Shown: piece by piece, positions 9,538-64,000 of the stretch
Layout: each line of letters begins with the position of its first letter
Position numbering within the stretch: the first letter of the stretch is position 1
Origin: Octopus vulgaris
Taxonomy: Eukaryota
Length of the DNA stretch: 64,000 bases
NCBI GenBank assembly: GCA_951406725.2
Contig: OX597826.1
Span: 10,974,001 to 11,038,000, forward strand
Direction: 5' to 3'
Notes under the pieces: generated by a model
Database searches by the model: none
What the model saw: the letters and a program-made list of their open reading frames with translations, nothing else
Told to the model about the DNA's origin: nothing
Program-made: the position numbers and the translations under genes

Positions 9538-9755
9538 TTTTTGCTGTGAAACTCAGAGTAACAGGTTTTGTTGAATTTTCTGCTGCTTTAAATAAAGCAT
9601 ATTACTCTACCACTGGTATTTGAGTACTCTTTTTTCCACCTTGTTTCACATTTATGTGTTTACTCTGGTATATATATATATATATATGACCTCGTCTGTA
9701 TCACTAGCGATTTTTTTCCCCTGTCTTCCCTTCTCGGGATCTTTCCTTCTCCTAT

Positions 9756-9863
9756 GTTTCCGACGAAGAGCTCCACTCGAAACGTCAAACCCTCCGTCTT
9801 CCCTTCTTTGGATCTTTCCTTCTCCTATGTTTCTGACGAAGAGCTCCGCTGGAAATGTCAAAC
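9756..9863 (+). ncRNA. Tandem pair (73-nt unit) of minimal hammerhead motifs
   Basis: Consensus GUUU-C(C/U)GACGA-A-GAGC ucc GCUC-GAAACGU-C-AAAC; each copy carries two substitutions relative to the canonical motif. Confidence 0.6.
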
Positions 9864-9966
9864 CCTCCTTCTTCCCTTCTTTCCTGAGTGTCCAATAATA
9901 CTTTATTTGTTCCACGTCCTTCCGTTGTTGTTTTTTTTGTTTTTGTTTTCTTGTTTGGATTAACTT

Positions 9967-11076: not shown

Positions 11077-11905
11077 ATATTGGGTCATCCTGTAAATAAT
11101 GCTGTTTTTTGAAATGCATGAACTAAAAGTTAGAGGGGGTAGGGATAAACTACCTGCATCAACTTGTACTTATTCTTAGTGCAAGTTTTAAAGAGTGCTG
11201 CTCAATTTTAAGTTACTTTTTCAAAACTATAATAGAAGTGACAATGTAGCATATTCGGCATATTTTGCTTTATGAGTTCATTAAAGGCAACAATACAATG
11301 GAAAGTGTGAGGAATATTAATGCAGTTTATGGGAATCGGACAATAAGTATAAGCCAGTGTCAACGGTGGTTCCAGAAATTTCGAGCCGGAAACTACATCC
11401 TAGAAAACGAGCCTCGTCCTAGAAGATCTGTAGAGTTTGATGAGGATGTCCTGCAAACCCTGGTGGAACAAAATCCCATTGTAACTGTTGAGGAACTAGC
11501 AGAGAAGCCTGGATTTGGTCATTCAACCAATCATCGATACCTGTGTGCCATTGGAAAAATCAACAAATCGGGTCTATGGTTCCTCACAAACTTTCCAAGT
11601 TTACTTGTGCACAGAAAGTGAATGTGTGCTCTTCTTTGCTGTCACATCTCACAAATGAACCTTTTTTGGACTGAATAGTAACTGGTGATGAGAAATGGGT
11701 TCTCTATGAAAACGTCAAATGCCAAAGACAGTGGGTAGAGAAAGGAGAAACACTGGTACCCCAGGCTGAAGAAGACTTTCACATATGTAAGATGTTGTTA
11801 TCTGTTTGGTGGGATATGAAAGGTTTAGTCCACTTTGAACTTTTAAACTCAAACCCAACGATAGCAAAGGAAATCTTCTGCAAGTAGCTTGAGTGGCTTA
11901 AGTCA
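11077..11905 (+). mobile_element. Decayed mariner transposon, 3'-truncated
   Basis: TIR-like TA-TTGGGTCATCC start. Translation shows the HTH (QCQRWFQKFRAGN..LENEPR), IVTGDEKWV and LSVWWD motifs, with stops and frameshifts. Confidence 0.9.
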
Positions 11906-19940: not shown

Positions 19941-20052
19941 GATTGGACAATTGCGATTATGCTACGCAGCATTTGATTGGTTGATTTTAACGTCTCTCAT
20001 TTATAATTGCATTATATCTTTTATGGTTAGTGTGTGTGTAAACTGCTATAAG
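19941..20052 (+). promoter_or_regulatory. Probable ELOVL4 core promoter: two reverse CCAAT boxes (ATTGG at 19942 and 19976) and TATAAG at 20047
   Basis: Motifs are visible ~160-270 nt upstream of an ATG in strong Kozak context. The surrounding region (~18.4-21 kb) is SINE-free and retains CpG. Confidence 0.5.
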
Positions 20053-20212
20053 TAGTGTAGGTGTATAGCGTAGTCCTATGTGTGTGTTTATGTGTATGTT
20101 TCTGTATGTGTAGGTGCTCCCACTGCGTAATCGCTGTTGCCGCACTTGTTTATGTCGCTGCTCTGATCAAGTCGGTATTTCACTTGGCCAGTCTTCTTTT
20201 ATTTTTTACACC

Positions 20213-20245
20213 ATGGCTAGCGGCTACTCGTGGGTTTACTTTGAG
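20213..20245 (+). CDS. ELOVL4: Probable first coding exon of ELOVL4-like elongase (MASGYSWVYFE)
   Basis: ACACCATGG Kozak context, 11 codons, phase-0 donor GAG|gtaaag. It splices in frame to GAT AAA ATG at 49453. Confidence 0.6.
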
Positions 20246-21157
20246 GTAAAGTGCTCTACCGTTATAACTGATTATTAATTTACAATTATTATTAATAATA
20301 ATGATAATACATTTATTCTTTTCTCTCATATTTCTTCTACACGTCTGACACTTTCTCATTTCCAGTTGTCAAATCTATTAAAAAAAGAAGAAAAAAGATA
20401 AATCAAATCATAAAATAGTATTGAGGAAAATACGCACATTTTAACATTCTCTTTCGTTTTTATTTTCGAAAGAAAATCTTATTAATTTTTCACACGGAAA
20501 GAAAATTGTTGAAATATACATTTTAAATTGCTTTTAAGAAAATCTCGAATTGTTGCAACTCTCTTAATTGCGACCTGCTTACTCATGTGTGGTGAAGTTT
20601 GGTTTCGCTTCTTCACGGTTGCTCGGTTCAATGGCTCTATTGTTAGTCCAATTACTTGTTGGTGATCGGGAGTATCATTGTCCATTTGTACATAAAAGAA
20701 AAAAATCTAATGTCTAGTGGTACGAAATCGTTATCCTGTTTTAAGGCTTTGTGTGTGTCTATGGAGTATCTCAATTCATCTTTTATCCCTCTTAACCCTT
20801 CATTTACTGCAAGAAACTGTTCTTGATGGCAGGTTTAAGTACCTTGCAAAACCCCCAAACCGGTTTTGCTGATACTCTTTGAGTAAGCGTGAGTATCACA
20901 GATACTCTGTTCTCTTCGTGATTACAGCTGAATATATTCAATATTATAATTTACCTTTCAAATAGCTTTTCATATTTCGAATAGCTGGAGTATGTTGAGA
21001 TTATATATATATATACTTTATTTAAAGCAGCAGAAAATTCAACAAAACCTGTTACTCTGAGTTCTGCTGCTTTAAATAAAGCATATTACTCTACCACTGG
21101 TATTTGAGTACTCTTTTTTCTACCTTGTTTCACATTTATGTGTTTACTCCGGTATAT

Positions 21158-47641: not shown

Positions 47642-48008
47642 TCTCTATATATATAAATGGCAAAATGTCTGTGTGTGTGTCTCCTTTATACAAATCCACA
47701 ATTTTTCAGTTAGAGGGCTCGCACTTTCTATGGTCATTCAAAACCGTCCAAGGGTAGTCGTGCACATCTTTACATTCCCCCAGTCACCCTGCAAAGCCAT
47801 TAAAAAAGACAATAGAAGTGACTTTTTTGTGAATTTTCTATCCAAAACCCAATCAAAATGCCCGAAACTTGATACGCCAATTGAATGCCAGCTAGCTGTA
47901 TGTGATTGGTCGGAGATTTGGACGGTACTCGCGTGTATGTGTACACGCATGCAGCTATATATGCATGCACTAGCACTATGACATGGTGTTGCTGGGTCAT
48001 AGTGCTAG
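47642..48008 (+). mobile_element. Non-autonomous Helitron H1
   Basis: TC...CTAG, A/T insertion site. Confidence 0.85.
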
Positions 48009-48279
48009 TCAGTAATAAAACAAGTGGTGATGGTCTTTGTGAGTAATTATTTAGTATAATTAATTAAAAAATAGAATAAACTGATTTACTGTGAGGAATA
48101 AAATAAGTTTGGACAGAAACTCTGGAGATGTGTTTATTTGGCACCATTCGAAATCATCTCTCTTTGAAGAAAGAGGTTTGCCTGAAATGCTAGACTTTTC
48201 TTCTTCCTCATAGTAAATAATTTCATTCTGTATTTGAACTGTTCATAGTCTGAGATAAACTACATTTGAAGAGACTGAA

Positions 48280-49345
48280 TATCTTTGATCTCAGGTCAGT
48301 TAGACCTGGGCTGAGCTGGGTTAAACATCTTTTGTGTATTTTTGATCTGGGCTGAGTTGGACTAAACATCCTTTAAATAATTTTGATTCCAGGTCAGTTT
48401 GACATGAAATAAAAAAGTATCTTTAATATATTTTTTATATATCTTTTATATATTTCAATCCTGGTCAGATTGTAATACCTTTGATATTTACCTGGGTTAA
48501 ACATCTTTTATACACTTTTTGCGGGTCAGCTTGACCTTAGGTCAAAATCATCTGAGGAATTACATCCGTGTTTCATGGTCTGCTACCACAGCAGCTCCTT
48601 TATAGGATCCAGTTAGCTCAACACATCATCAGGAGGAACCACGTCCGGTTTCGGCCCCTACTCCTCTACCGTTTTGACATGGCTGGGCCCCCCTTTCGGA
48701 GTTGTCTTCAGCTCTGGTGTTGGGTGCATGTCTTCTTTCTTCTGTTCCCTGGCCTCTTCGATGTATCGTCAGCGAGATCCTTTATATATTTCAATCCTGA
48801 TCAGATTGTAATACCTTTGATATTTACCTGGGTTAAACATCTTTTATACATTTTTTGCAGGTCAGCTTGACCTGAGCTCAAGATCATGTTTTATATTTGC
48901 TCTGGAATGAGTTAGGCTAAAGAACATCTTTTATATATTTTTGCTATCTGGTCAGTTTGACCTTTTGATTCCTGGTCAGATAAATATACTTTTTATATTT
49001 GATCTGGGATAAACATCTTTTATACACTTTTTGCAGGTCAGCTTGACCTGAGGTCAAAATCATCCTTTATATTTGATCTGGGGTAAACATCTTTCATACA
49101 CTTTTTGCAGGTCAGCTTGACCTGAGATCAAAATCATCTTTTATATATGATATGGAATGAGCTGGGCTAAACAACATCTTTATATAGCTGTGATCCTCGG
49201 TCAGCTTGACCCAGGATGAACTGGGACTAAGCAGTATCTTATGTATACTTAATCATAACTCAACTTGACCAGAATTGAGCTAGGATTAAAGTTCTGTATA
49301 ATTTTCACCCTAGGTCAGTTTGATGAGTACTGATTGGGGTATGAC
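48280..49345. repeat. Degenerate minisatellite array with repeated CAGGTCAGCTTGACCTG palindromes (ERE-like IR3)
   Basis: Repeated aggtcagcttgacctg...gatctgggctaaacatcttttata units, interrupted by a ~225 bp insert at 48552-48777. Confidence 0.85.
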
Positions 49346-49452
49346 TAACATCTGTTATATATCTGTTTATATTTAGTAATATTGACAGAAATGAAATGAA
49401 TTTGTTTACAATTTCTATTTTAGTAAAAGGTGTTTTTGTTTTATTTTTAAAG

Positions 49453-49525
49453 GATAAAATGGAAGTAGTAAAAGACAAGTTGATGGAAGTCCAAGAATTC
49501 TACAACTGGACACTTTCATTTTCTG
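49453..49525 (+). CDS. ELOVL4: ELOVL4-like exon (DK-MEVVKDKLMEVQEFYNWTLSFS-D), ATG at 49459
   Basis: Acceptor ttttatttttaaag and donor G|gtaagt. The EFYNWTL..D motif matches the ELOVL4 N-terminus, and the phase-1 junction joins DPRV of the next exon. Confidence 0.9.
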
Positions 49526-49696
49526 GTAAGTTACAAAAATGTAAAAGTTATTTCTGAAAAAAAAAATGCTTCTTGTTATTTGTAAATGTTTGAATTAATA
49601 CTATCTTCACCAGTTTTCTCATCTACATCTCACCTTTAATTTGCATGTGTGTGTTTACATCTATGTCTGTTTGTCTGTCTTCACACACACACACAC

Positions 49697-50620
49697 ATGC
49701 CCGTGCGGTTGAATCAAAAGCGTTTTCATATTTCAAGCTTTAATTAATAGTTCAAACAAATTACATGTGAAATTACATTCATCAAGGTGTGTCTCATCAT
49801 ATTCTATTGTCTGTTGCCATTGTTGTACCAGAAACTCAATTCCATGCTTATACCTATTTCTTTACTGCCCACAAGGGGCTACACACAGAGAGGACAAACA
49901 AGGACAGACAAACGGATTAGGTCGATTATATCAACCCCAGTGCATAACTGGCGCTTAATTTATTGACCCTGAAAGGATGAAAGGCAAAGTCGACTGCGGC
50001 AGAATTTGAACTCAGAACATAACAGCAGACAAAATACCTATTTCTTTACTACCCACAAGGGGCTAAACACAGAGAGGGCAAACAAGGACAGACAAACGGA
50101 TTAAGTCGATTATATCGACCCCAGTGCATAACTGGTGCTTAATTTGTCGACCCCGAAAGGATGAAAGGCAAAGTCGACCTTGGCAGAATTTGAATTCAGA
50201 ATGTAACAGCAGACGAAATACCGCGAAGCATTTCGCCCAGCGTGCTAACATTTCTGCCAGCTTGCCGCAGTTCCATGCTTATACCATTTATCTAGTTTAG
50301 AGGCAAAAGTTTCCTTGCACCTGTTTTTAACCTCATCCACATTATTGAACCCCTGTCTGGACAGGAAAATGAGCCAAGGCTTGGAAAAAGTGATAACCTG
50401 ATAGTGCAAATCTGAATTGTAGTCAGGGTGATGCAGCACTTGCAGCCCCTTAAGTTCCTGAAATTTGTAATTGGTCACATTAGCAGTGTGACCAAGTGTG
50501 CATCTCTGATTGACCAATGCTGGGTAGCTGGCTTTCAAAGCATCATACACTCACTGTAGTTGTTGAACATAAAATTTAGTATTCACAGCAGGAATACTAA
50601 CTCAAAGTGCAACACCCCAT
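49697..50620 (-). mobile_element. 3' part of a second mariner, interrupted by a SINE dimer
   Basis: HPDYNSDL...FNNVDEVKN..FASKLDKWYKHG. The sequence resumes on the other side of the TSD ttccatgcttatacc. Confidence 0.75.
49855..50270 (-). mobile_element. SINE family B tandem dimer
   Basis: A full copy plus a 5'-truncated copy inside one 15-bp TSD. Confidence 0.88.
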
Positions 50621-50739
50621 CGCGGCTTCGGTTGCATGTATTAATAAAAAATAACAACTAATTAATAATGTATTCACCCTTATTGTTCACTTGATTTCAT
50701 TTTGAAAAATTGATCCAATCAAGCGCTCAATTCTGCACG

Positions 50740-51806
50740 AACTCCATGCATAGCATTTGAAAGAGATCGAAAGAGGTGGAAATCCATTGGTGCCAAATCA
50801 GGAGAGTACGGCGGGTGTGGCAGCACTTCCCAACCATGCGTTTCAATGGCTTTGGTCATATTGGTGATATAAGGGTGGGTGTTGTCGTGCAGCAGAAGAA
50901 CTCTGTGCTGCCGATTAGGTCTTTTCTCTTGAATAATCGTGTTGAGTTGTTCCATCTGTTTAACATAGAGTTCCGCGTTGACCGATTGGTTCCGTTCAAG
51001 GAATTCGTAATGGATAATCCCTCCCCAGTCCCACCATACGCACAGCATCTTTTTATGCAGATGATCTTGTTTCACGCGATGTCGCTTGTAGTCTGGGGCT
51101 AAGCCACTCCTTACACTGCTTCATAGTGATGTACAGGCACCATTTTTCGTTGCCAGTAACGATTCGGTAAAGAAATCGTTGCTAGTGCTCATGAGTTGAG
51201 CGGTGATGAGCAAGCAAACCTACGGAGATTGTGGCTCCTTGATTTTTGTTGTTGTCACTTAAAGCATGCGGAACCCATGCTCCATACTTCTGAACCTTTC
51301 CCATCGAGTGAAGATGCTTCTCTATAGCAGTGTGGGAGCATTCCATTTTCTCTGCCAGTTCCTTTGTCGTTTGACGAGAATTTTCATGGAAAAGTTGGTT
51401 TAATTGCTCTTCATCGAACTCAACTGGACGGCCAGAACGAGGTGCGTCTTTGAGATCAAAATTTCCATTTTTTAACTTAGCATATCAATCACGAGCGGTT
51501 CTTTCAGCTATAGCACCCTCTCCATACACAGCACAAATGTCACGAGCAGCTTTTCCGGCCTTAGAGCCTTGATTAAAAGCAAAAAGGTGTTGAAAATGCT
51601 CGTTTTTCTTAACTTGACATTCCATTTTAATGATCTGAAAATAAACAAAAATTAACTAAAATTAACTAGAAAAAAAAAACAAAACAAAATAGATTCCAAA
51701 ATGATTCAAAAATAGAATTCTCGTAAAAAATAGATTCCAAAATTTAAAAACGCAATAAATTCCAAAATTTAAAAAAAAACGGCGGGAACTTAGTTGCTAA
51801 CCCAAT
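50740..51806 (-). mobile_element. Mariner transposase pseudogene with left TIR
   Basis: ATG at 51625; DAPRSGRP, WVPHAL, LCVWWD, HDN and HPPYSPDLAPMDFHLF motifs; TIR TATTGGGTTAGCAACTAAGTTCCCGCCG; in-frame stops. Confidence 0.93.
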
Positions 51807-52160: not shown

Positions 52161-52348
52161 ATCCAAGAGTTGCTGATTGGCCCTTAATGGATGGAGTCTC
52201 AAATACCCTTGCATTATCTGGACTCTATCTTTTGATTGTCTGGTGTGGTCCTATGTACATGCACAAACGAAAGCCATTTGTTTTAAAATGGCCCCTATTC
52301 ATCTATAACATTGTACTAATTGCATTGAACTTGCATATATGTATTGAG
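52161..52348 (+). CDS. ELOVL4: ELOVL4-like exon, 188 nt (DPRVADWPLMDGVSNTLALSGLYLLIVWCGPMYMHKRKPFVLKWPLFIYNIVLIALNLHICIE)
   Basis: Typical ELO-family DxRVxxWPLM...GP.YM..RKPF...YN motifs, acceptor ttttag and donor GAG|gtaaat. Same length as the corresponding vertebrate ELOVL4 exon. Confidence 0.96.
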
Positions 52349-52397
52349 GTAAATGTTAACGAATCATTATTTTTTAATTTGATTTTTCTGTTCTTGT

Positions 52398-63771: not shown

Positions 63772-63852
63772 CTACTGATCGGATCCTACCGTGCTGGCTA
63801 CAACTACCTTTGTCAGCCTGTTTCATACAGCCTTGATCCAAACGAGATGAGA
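63772..63852 (+). CDS. ELOVL4: ELOVL4-like exon, 81 nt (LLIGSYRAGYNYLCQPVSYSLDPNEMR); gene continues beyond the window
   Basis: Acceptor tcttttgacag, donor AGA|gtaagt, phase 0/0. The GSY.AGY.Y.CQ.V.YS motif resembles ELOVL4. Confidence 0.95.
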
Positions 63853-64000
63853 GTAAGTATGACTTTTATGTTTTCTCATAAAATGTTTTTTAAAAATTTA
63901 TGAGTTTTAAATTTATGATCTTTGAATTGATATTTTATATAGAGGCGCAGGTGGGGCTGTGTGGTAAGAAGCTTGCTTCTCAACCACATGATTCTAGGTT

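What the first reader, a model, noticed from the sequence alone, without database searches (positions are those of the whole stretch)
48280..49345. Dense cluster of perfect estrogen-response-element palindromes just upstream of the ATG-bearing ELOVL4 exon
Seen: six perfect GGTCAnnnTGACC cores at 48524, 48860, 48950, 49036, 49110 and 49199. Three of them are full AGGTCA-GCT-TGACCT. Near-perfect sites lie at 48293 and 48391, a more degenerate one at 49312, and extra AGGTCA half-sites at 48539 and 49051. The array ends ~110 nt before the acceptor at 49453, and I noticed no comparable sites elsewhere in the window. Established: IR3 AGGTCA is the binding site of estrogen receptors (NR3A); the Octopus vulgaris ER binds EREs and activates transcription without ligand; vertebrate ELOVL2 is ER-regulated. 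Inference: a tandem-repeat-built, copy-number-tunable nuclear-receptor enhancer or alternative promoter for a PUFA elongase, possibly acting in ovary lipid provisioning.
Basis: partly seen in the sequence, partly recalled or inferred. Interest (0 to 1): 0.85.

Follow-up and report, generated by a model that had tools for sequence, protein, structure and literature searches.

The report
ERE-cored minisatellite in octopus ELOVL4 intron
An octopus fatty-acid elongase gene carries, deep in its first intron, an old tandem repeat whose core matches the oestrogen-receptor binding site; the six perfect sites are copies of that one core and come and go between related animals, so the cluster is likely incidental, though it would be the first natural target of the mollusc oestrogen-receptor-like protein if it proved active.

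Summary
The six perfect GGTCAnnnTGACC sites are real and unique in the window. They are cores of one degenerate ~60-bp palindromic minisatellite (48278-49346) at the 3' end of the 29.2-kb first intron of Octopus ELOVL4; an RNA contig splices exon 1 (ATG 20213) straight to 49453, so no alternative promoter is seen. Contigs of three DNA runs show the array at one locus, present in two other organisms but rearranged. Site 48524 came from a 111-bp duplication flanking a high-copy repeat insertion absent in organisms C and E. 49036/49110 are one 74-bp duplication, single in E. Site 48950 is missing in E and symmetrically changed to a non-ERE palindrome in C. The array diverges as fast as its flanks (E: 10/179 vs 19/325). 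Among eight old units the core is better kept than the rest (0.79 vs 0.55), but this is ascertained, and two spacer bases are kept as well. Best reading: an unselected, self-perfecting palindromic repeat that likely can bind the octopus ER-like receptor (0.55); a selected enhancer remains open (0.3).

The parts
48278..49346 (.). Degenerate minisatellite, ancestral unit about 57-60 bp: T-rich block, palindromic core with 3-nt loop, GC-richer tail; many units internally deleted
   Evidence: single-locus depth in three DNA runs
48294..48306 (.). ERE-like core, 1 mismatch
48392..48404 (.). ERE-like core, 1 mismatch, inside a longer imperfect palindrome (13 of 16 arm positions pair)
48441..48551 (+). 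First copy of a 111-bp direct duplication flanking the insertion; single copy in organisms C and E
   Evidence: 94% identity; joint 48416->48777 in X5 and X9
48524..48536 (.). Perfect ERE core, young copy of 48860 made by the 111-bp duplication
48552..48776 (.). 225-bp fragment of a high-copy interspersed repeat (52% GC), natural end near 48554, cut at 48776; class not determined
   Evidence: GC; summed depth 1.5e5-8.6e5 against about 20-170 around it, unlike loose ends before 48554/48555, shared loose end after 48776
48777..48887 (+). Second copy of the 111-bp duplication
48860..48872 (.). Perfect ERE core (full 15-bp form); listed change in E falls in the spacer
48950..48962 (.). Perfect ERE core; right half absent in E, both halves changed symmetrically in C
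48992..49155 (+). 74-bp tandem duplication (2.2 copies, 93%) carrying perfect cores 49036 and 49110; one copy in E
   Evidence: joint 48955->49066
49199..49211 (.). Perfect ERE core inside an 11-bp-arm palindrome (10 of 11 pair); base 49198 is A in C and E, C in the window
49258..49325 (.). Two degenerate cores (49258, 49313; 2 mismatches each)
20213..20245 (+). Coding part of ELOVL4 exon 1 (in-frame ATG, 11 codons), donor GT at 20246
   Evidence: RNA loose end before 49451 located at 20215; tblastn with P0001/P0002
49453..49525 (+). ELOVL4 exon 2, second in-frame ATG at 49459
52161..52349 (+). ELOVL4 exon 3
   Evidence: Pfam ELO PF01151 E 3e-10; 90% to O. bimaculoides ELOVL4 isoform X1; RNA loose end after 49525

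Best explanation
The six sites are copies of the palindromic core of one old, single-locus minisatellite at the far end of ELOVL4 intron 1, and their match to the oestrogen response element is likely incidental rather than selected. Shown: the unit, its single locus, and gains and losses of sites by a repeat-insertion-linked 111-bp duplication, a 74-bp duplication, a 24-bp indel and a symmetric double change. Inferred: the ancestral unit was a hairpin-forming inverted repeat with a 3-nt loop; slippage and unequal exchange multiply it, and template switching copies one arm onto the other, which keeps cores palindromic with or without the ERE letters. Inferred from established biochemistry: the octopus ER-like receptor would bind these sites in vitro, but nothing here shows that this matters for ELOVL4, whose promoter lies about 29 kb upstream.
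For: Array substitutions match or exceed the flanks: E 10/179 vs 19/325 (p 1.0); C 9/251 vs 6/405 (p 0.11), and 10/249 vs 3/325 among listed changes in one contig (p 0.02, faster in the array). Listed changes are not depleted in cores: 2 of 23 against 1.6 expected. C's contig has 48951G>A with 48961C>T, which keeps the palindrome and destroys the ERE, within a cluster of four changes in 14 bp. Arms run past the ERE hexamer at 48392 and 49199 and for 16 of 17 positions in an extra unit of E (table 5c, read by eye). Spacer positions 1 and 3 are kept as well as the core (0.75, 1.0) while the two outer right-hand C columns are not (about 0.5 and 0.3). A rough look-elsewhere sum gives about 24 ERE-cored tandem units per 2.5 Gb by chance (genome size assumed). 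Quasi-palindrome correction is documented in yeast (PMC5677150, abstract).
Against: Among eight old units (pairwise identity mostly 0.45-0.79) core columns average 0.79 against 0.55 elsewhere (p 0.004), and the 13 columns of the site are the best-kept window; three unit lineages keep a perfect core independently. The array persists in three organisms next to a gene reported as gonad-expressed. No listed change in E hits a core, and 49198 in C and E gives a better half-site than the window. Only 40 of 102 difference rows were shown, so the between-organism test is weak. Arm symmetry beyond the hexamer is absent at 48524, 48950 and 49036 in ungapped register.
Confidence: 0.55

Rival explanations
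1. A selected intronic enhancer: tandem duplication built a homotypic cluster for the constitutively active mollusc ER-like receptor (NR3D), which likely boosts ELOVL4 from 29 kb away in tissues where the receptor is expressed; redundancy lets single sites turn over.
For: Core best-kept part of old units (0.79 vs 0.55; 9 mismatches in 80 core positions, p 3e-4 against a 0.72 per-branch identity); single locus; Marisa ER-like protein binds GGTCAnnnTGACC without ligand; mollusc ERs described as constitutive; human ELOVL2 has an ER-bound ERE; a 156-nt RNA contig at 49172-49327 (depth 3.8) could be enhancer RNA but equally pre-mRNA or DNA.
Against: After removing the three perfect units that caused the array to be noticed, 9 mismatches in 50 positions, p 0.08; core-less units were left out of that alignment; no conservation gain between organisms; one site destroyed in C; outer right-hand CC poorly kept; site gains trace to mechanical events.
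Confidence: 0.3
2. An RNA-level element: T-rich tract plus YAG|GTnAG at six unit cores could act as recursive or decoy splice sites near the end of a 29-kb intron, or the hairpins could shape splicing or editing of the nearby acceptor.
For: Six of the 17 YAGGTnAG words in the window lie in the array, each after 8-9 pyrimidines in 12 nt; left half and first spacer G are best kept; the array folds with z -2.65 (2 of 100 shuffles as stable).
Against: The invariant C at donor position +3 is against the usual purine (recalled); the RNA contig joins exon 1 directly to 49453 and no joint inside the array is listed for X15 (4 joints and 452 loose ends not shown); folding is expected of any palindromic repeat; no Rfam match at E<=1.
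Confidence: 0.08
3. The array is the subterminal repeat block of a dispersed DNA transposon or MITE family, with GTCA-nnn-TGAC as transposase sites (motif recalled from piggyBac-like elements).
For: Long palindromic units and both inverted and everted half-site arrangements.
Against: No second locus at 80% likeness in three DNA runs; in X9 the bins 49076-49355 hold one contig only; no other copy in the window. An extinct, highly diverged origin is not excluded.
Confidence: 0.04
4. An alternative promoter or 5' exon for a 309-aa ELOVL4 form starting at the ATG at 49459.
For: O. vulgaris cDNA is given as 309 aa, 13 residues shorter than the 322-aa P0001, which is the distance between the two ATGs (arithmetic only).
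Against: The one RNA run shows exon 1 spliced to 49453; bins 49300-49411 have depth 0-1.9 against about 240 on the exon. One run, tissue unknown.
Confidence: 0.03

Closest known systems
Consensus oestrogen response element (IR3, GGTCAnnnTGACC) of NR3A receptors and mollusc ER-like (NR3D) proteins
   Same: Six exact cores, three with the full 15-bp form; a gastropod ER-like protein binds this consensus in EMSA (PMC3778743, passages).
   Different: No binding or activity shown for these sites; all are copies of one repeat core with spacer GCT or GTT; several arms extend beyond the receptor footprint; Marisa ERR did not bind the ERE in that paper, which weakens the ERR option.
VNTR/minisatellite regulatory elements carrying transcription-factor sites (e.g. 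MNS16A with GATA1 sites, PMC5438627; expression-linked VNTRs, PMC8024321; search listing and abstract starts only)
   Same: Tandem unit carrying a factor motif, with copy number differing between genomes.
   Different: Here units are old and degenerate, variation is seen between organisms and not yet within a population, and there is no expression association.
ER-bound ERE upstream of human ELOVL2 (PMC5082882, passages); LXR/SREBP control of fish elovl4 (PMC5442133, passages)
   Same: Nuclear-receptor control of a PUFA elongase. The unit also holds loose DR4-like pairs on the minus strand at 48302, 49207, 49266.
   Different: Different paralogue or receptor, single promoter-proximal sites, ligand-dependent; the octopus sites are 29 kb into intron 1.
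Quasi-palindrome correction by template switching (PMC5677150, abstract)
   Same: Clustered, symmetric changes that keep an inverted repeat perfect, as at 48948-48961 in organism C.
   Different: Shown in yeast; here one contig, one event, mechanism inferred.
Non-LTR retroelement insertions with very long target-site duplications (rotifer R9, seen only as a reference title in PMC7943196; RTE clade, recalled)
   Same: A one-end-truncated high-copy fragment between two copies of 111 bp that are single in relatives.
   Different: The element's class was not identified; a repair-linked duplication fits as well.

Membership tests
Oestrogen response element | GGTCAnnnTGACC inverted repeat with 3-nt spacer | tested here: met
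   6 perfect cores, 3 full 15-mers
Oestrogen response element | Bound by the cognate receptor in vitro and in chromatin | not testable with these tools
   Only general binding of a gastropod ER-like protein to the consensus is documented in what I read
Oestrogen response element | Half-sites constrained, spacer free | tested here: inconclusive
   Among units core 0.79, spacer 0.75/0.32/1.0, rest 0.55; between organisms 2 core and 2 spacer changes among 23 listed, 1.6 and 0.5 expected
Enhancer of ELOVL4 | Conserved above flanking intron | tested here: not met
   E 10/179 vs 19/325; C 9/251 vs 6/405; two comparison organisms, one contig each
Enhancer of ELOVL4 | Open chromatin, reporter activity, effect on the gene | not testable with these tools
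   No such data reachable
Alternative promoter | Transcripts starting in or spliced from the array | tested here: inconclusive
   One RNA-like run, contigs only: exon 1 joined to 49453; weak 156-nt intronic contig
Single-locus minisatellite | Head-to-tail related units of 10-100 bp | tested here: met
   21 segments of 23-60 bp with a ~58-bp consensus; TRF periods 41 and 74
Single-locus minisatellite | One locus; unit number varies between genomes | tested here: met
   Single-contig depth over the array; unit gains and losses in C and E
Dispersed transposon subterminal array / MITE | Many genomic copies with shared ends | tested here: not met
   No excess depth over ERE-bearing bins at 80% likeness in X3, X5, X9; met only for the 225-bp insert
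Recursive splice site | AG|GT with pyrimidine tract and junction reads from the upstream exon | tested here: inconclusive
   Motif shape present with C at +3; no such joint listed in one RNA contig set

The most novel reading that the evidence does not exclude
The array is a natural multi-ERE enhancer assembled from a self-perfecting palindromic minisatellite, the first identified genomic target of the ligand-independent mollusc ER-like receptor, with ELOVL4 output set by site number, and a retroelement insertion recently added a site through its 111-bp target duplication.
Probability: 0.25. Interest if true: 0.8.

Novelty: new member of a known kind. Interest (0 to 1): 0.37.

Why it matters
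Mollusc ER-like receptors are constitutive activators that bind the vertebrate ERE, but a 2013 paper states that the presence and position of EREs in mollusc genomes, and so the meaning of that binding, were unknown (PMC3778743). A 1-kb stretch with three to six perfect sites in a gonad- and eye-expressed very-long-chain PUFA elongase is a ready test substrate, with natural variants (sites present in A, absent or broken in C and E). If inactive, it is a useful caution: palindromic minisatellites multiply and polish motif matches, so shuffle statistics on such clusters mislead.

Tried and rejected
No whole genome is held, so the genome-wide ERE-cluster scan could not be run. No earlier scan notes bear on this: 6 look-ups answered, all empty. 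Rfam at E<=1 over 47900-49700: 0 matches. Exact 25-nt array pattern in metagenome contigs: 0, uninformative for an animal intron. No RNA holder on record among 24 runs listed: not used as evidence; X15 is RNA by guess only, though its contig joins exons. Bins without RNA cover are not taken as silence. Summed contig depth is not a copy number; I used it only to tell many-locus from one-locus sequence. The insert has stops in all six frames and no hammerhead fold by my pattern; class left open. Paper search for minisatellite + oestrogen response element + tandem repeat + enhancer: 0 papers; searches on octopus ER and octopus elovl4 listed no title on ERE targets or this intron; the library lacks most subscription journals, so this is no proof of absence. 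Keay et al. 2006 on the Octopus ER was not read, only seen cited. Rejected: treating the 0-of-100 shuffle result as evidence of function; dispersed-repeat origin of the array; reading exon 2 as the first exon. The first exon-joining script had boundaries off by one and was redone.

Full report
Observation. The six perfect GGTCAnnnTGACC cores lie at 48524, 48860, 48950, 49036, 49110 and 49199 and nowhere else in the window; dinucleotide shuffles give 0.06 on average and never six in 100. The two kilobases holding the array have the highest density of one-mismatch half-sites in the window, 26 and 20 against a mean of 7.8. The count is not six independent events: all sites are cores of related repeat units.

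Gene context. Exon 52161-52349 is Pfam ELO and 90% identical to O. bimaculoides ELOVL4 isoform X1, 79% to an Argonauta ELOVL4-like protein (5 hits among 103 candidates), so the window is an Octopus ELOVL4 locus. In the one RNA-like run laid (X15), a contig leaves 49453 to the left into sequence found at 20215-20245 and leaves 49525 to the right into 52161. The spliced frame starts at an ATG at 20213 and matches the first 35 residues of both named proteins. Intron 1 is 20246-49452 (29,207 bp) and the array sits in its last 1.2 kb. Two inverted CCAAT boxes at 19942 and 19976 mark a likely proximal promoter. The published O. vulgaris protein has 309 aa (PMC5367039, passages), 13 fewer than P0001, which is the distance to the ATG at 49459; both starts may be used (arithmetic only). 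The same paper mentions unpublished data placing Elovl4 mRNA in gonads and eye.

Anatomy. Cutting at the recurring T-rich block gives 21 segments of 23-60 bp (one, the 3' tail, beyond 49346); their consensus is about 58 bp: T-rich block, a short linker, the palindromic core with a 3-nt loop, and a GC-richer tail. Many segments are internal deletions that lack the core. Core-bearing units are old: pairwise identity 0.45-0.79, except 0.91 for the recent pair. Young events overlay this: a 111-bp direct repeat at 48441-48551 / 48777-48887 (94%) around a 225-bp, 52% GC insert, and a 74-bp tandem pair at 48992-49155 (93%). The palindrome extends past the receptor hexamer at 48392 and 49199 but not, in ungapped register, at 48524, 48950 or 49036. 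Half-sites also stand as everted pairs with 1-nt spacing and as loose DR4-like pairs.

Other genomes. No assembly is held. Of 24 runs listed I laid 4 as contigs at 80% likeness over 48012-49670: X3 (organism A, another sample), X5 (C), X9 (E), X15 (RNA by guess, A). (1) The insert draws summed depths of 1.5e5-8.6e5 in all three DNA runs, with unlike loose ends before 48554/48555 (agreement about 0.4 over 32-44 contigs per row) and a shared continuation after 48776: a truncated piece of a many-locus repeat. (2) ERE-bearing bins outside it stay at flank level (X3 30-96, X5 18-139, X9 0-117; exactly one contig, 56.1, over 49076-49355 in X9): the array is single-locus at this sensitivity. The tool warns that depth is no copy number and that some records are filtered. 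(3) C and E both jump 48416->48777 with 23 letters matching 48418-48440, so they lack the insert and one 111-bp copy; site 48524 is a by-product of that event in lineage A. X3's contigs break at the duplication, consistent with, but not proving, the same state as the window. (4) E jumps 48955->49066 with 12 letters matching 48980-48991, so it lacks 24 bp with the right half of site 48950 and one 74-bp unit; it has an extra unit after 48346 whose arms pair at 16 of 17 positions around a one-mismatch core (table 5c, read by eye). (5) C's contig carries 48948, 48951, 48955 and 48961 changes, turning site 48950 into GATCA-nnn-TGATC: still a palindrome, no longer an ERE. At most three of the six sites have perfect counterparts in E and at most four in C; I cannot confirm they are intact because 62 of 102 difference rows were not shown.

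Tests of constraint. Between organisms the array is not slower than its flanks: E 10/179 in an array piece, 19/325 in a mostly flanking piece, 37/605 in a mixed piece; C 9/251, 6/405, 15/574. Among listed changes in C's 3' contig, 10 fall in 249 array bases and 3 in 325 others, which include the exon (p 0.02). Of 23 listed array positions 2 are in cores (1.6 expected) and 2 in spacers (0.5 expected); power is low. Among units the result favours constraint: with one representative per recent family (8 core-bearing units; core-less segments left out), core columns average 0.79 pairwise identity against 0.55 for 43 other columns (p 0.004; 0.77 vs 0.53 with other representatives), and the site is the best 13-column window. 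But the array was noticed for its perfect cores; without the three perfect units the excess is marginal (9 of 50 mismatches, p 0.08). The profile is also not the one expected of an ER dimer site: left half 0.90, right half 0.69, spacer 0.75/0.32/1.0, outer right CC about 0.5 and 0.3. A rough sum (0.94 chance sites per Mb, 1% of the window as amplified unit, 2.5 Gb assumed; the O. vulgaris assembly is 2.8 Gb, PMC13282606, passages) gives about 24 ERE-cored arrays per genome by chance.

How it most likely works. Shown: a single-locus minisatellite whose site number changes through duplication, deletion and a repeat insertion. Inferred: the ancestral unit was a hairpin-forming inverted repeat; template switching, documented as quasi-palindrome correction in yeast (PMC5677150, abstract), would keep the inner arms matched and also explains C's symmetric change. 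From established biochemistry: a gastropod ER-like protein binds this consensus without ligand while its ERR apparently did not (PMC3778743, passages), mollusc ERs are constitutive (PMC2529310, PMC3886901, passages) and are now often called NR3D (PMC12965858, passages), so the array would probably behave like a multi-ERE cassette in a reporter. Whether it does so at the locus is untested. I put 0.55 on incidental, 0.30 on selected enhancer, 0.08 on a splicing or RNA role, 0.04 on a dispersed transposon block, 0.03 on an alternative promoter.

Comparison and novelty. It works like a VNTR carrying factor sites (listing and abstract starts) and matches the ERE by sequence, but fails the conservation test for an enhancer on the little data at hand. 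Human ELOVL2 and fish elovl4 show nuclear-receptor control of elongases by analogy only. My searches listed no paper on this intron or on endogenous octopus EREs; supplements were not read and subscription journals are mostly missing. Verdict: real, well-defined, new member of a known kind; interpretation open and cheaply testable; interest 0.37.

Noticed in passing
window 48441-48887: A 225-bp truncated high-copy repeat sits between two copies of 111 bp that are single in organisms C and E: an unusually long target-site-like duplication. Element class unknown.
   Followed up: partly
window 20213-20245 and 49459: Two in-frame ATGs 13 codons apart in different exons; the 11 exon-1 residues are identical in P0001 and P0002 and nearly so in P0005, so the N-terminal extension is conserved and may be missing from the 309-aa cloned form.
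   Followed up: partly
window 19942-20055: Two inverted CCAAT boxes 34 bp apart upstream of exon 1, as in NF-Y/SREBP-type lipid gene promoters (recalled).
   Followed up: no
window 9723-9882; also 9533-9504 (-) and 8272-8239 (-): 73-bp tandem unit (2.2 copies) with hammerhead-like core words by my own loose pattern, as in Penelope-type repeats (recalled); Rfam gave no hammerhead at E<=10.
   Followed up: partly
window 50719-51500 (-): Broken mariner-type transposase in intron 2 (Pfam PF01359 E 3e-17); another mariner-like stretch at 11250-11621.
   Followed up: no
window 49850-50222: 184-bp tandem duplication (91%) of a SINE-like piece.
   Followed up: no
window 49172-49327: Low-depth (3.8) intronic contig with no differences in the RNA-like run X15, covering site 49199; pre-mRNA, DNA or enhancer RNA cannot be told apart.
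   Followed up: no
window 48956-48963: Minus-strand AAAGGTCA, the monomeric NR4A-type site (name recalled), overlaps the right half of site 48950.
   Followed up: no
window 63781-63858: ELOVL4 exon 4 begins here (tblastn); intron 3 is about 11.4 kb.
   Followed up: no
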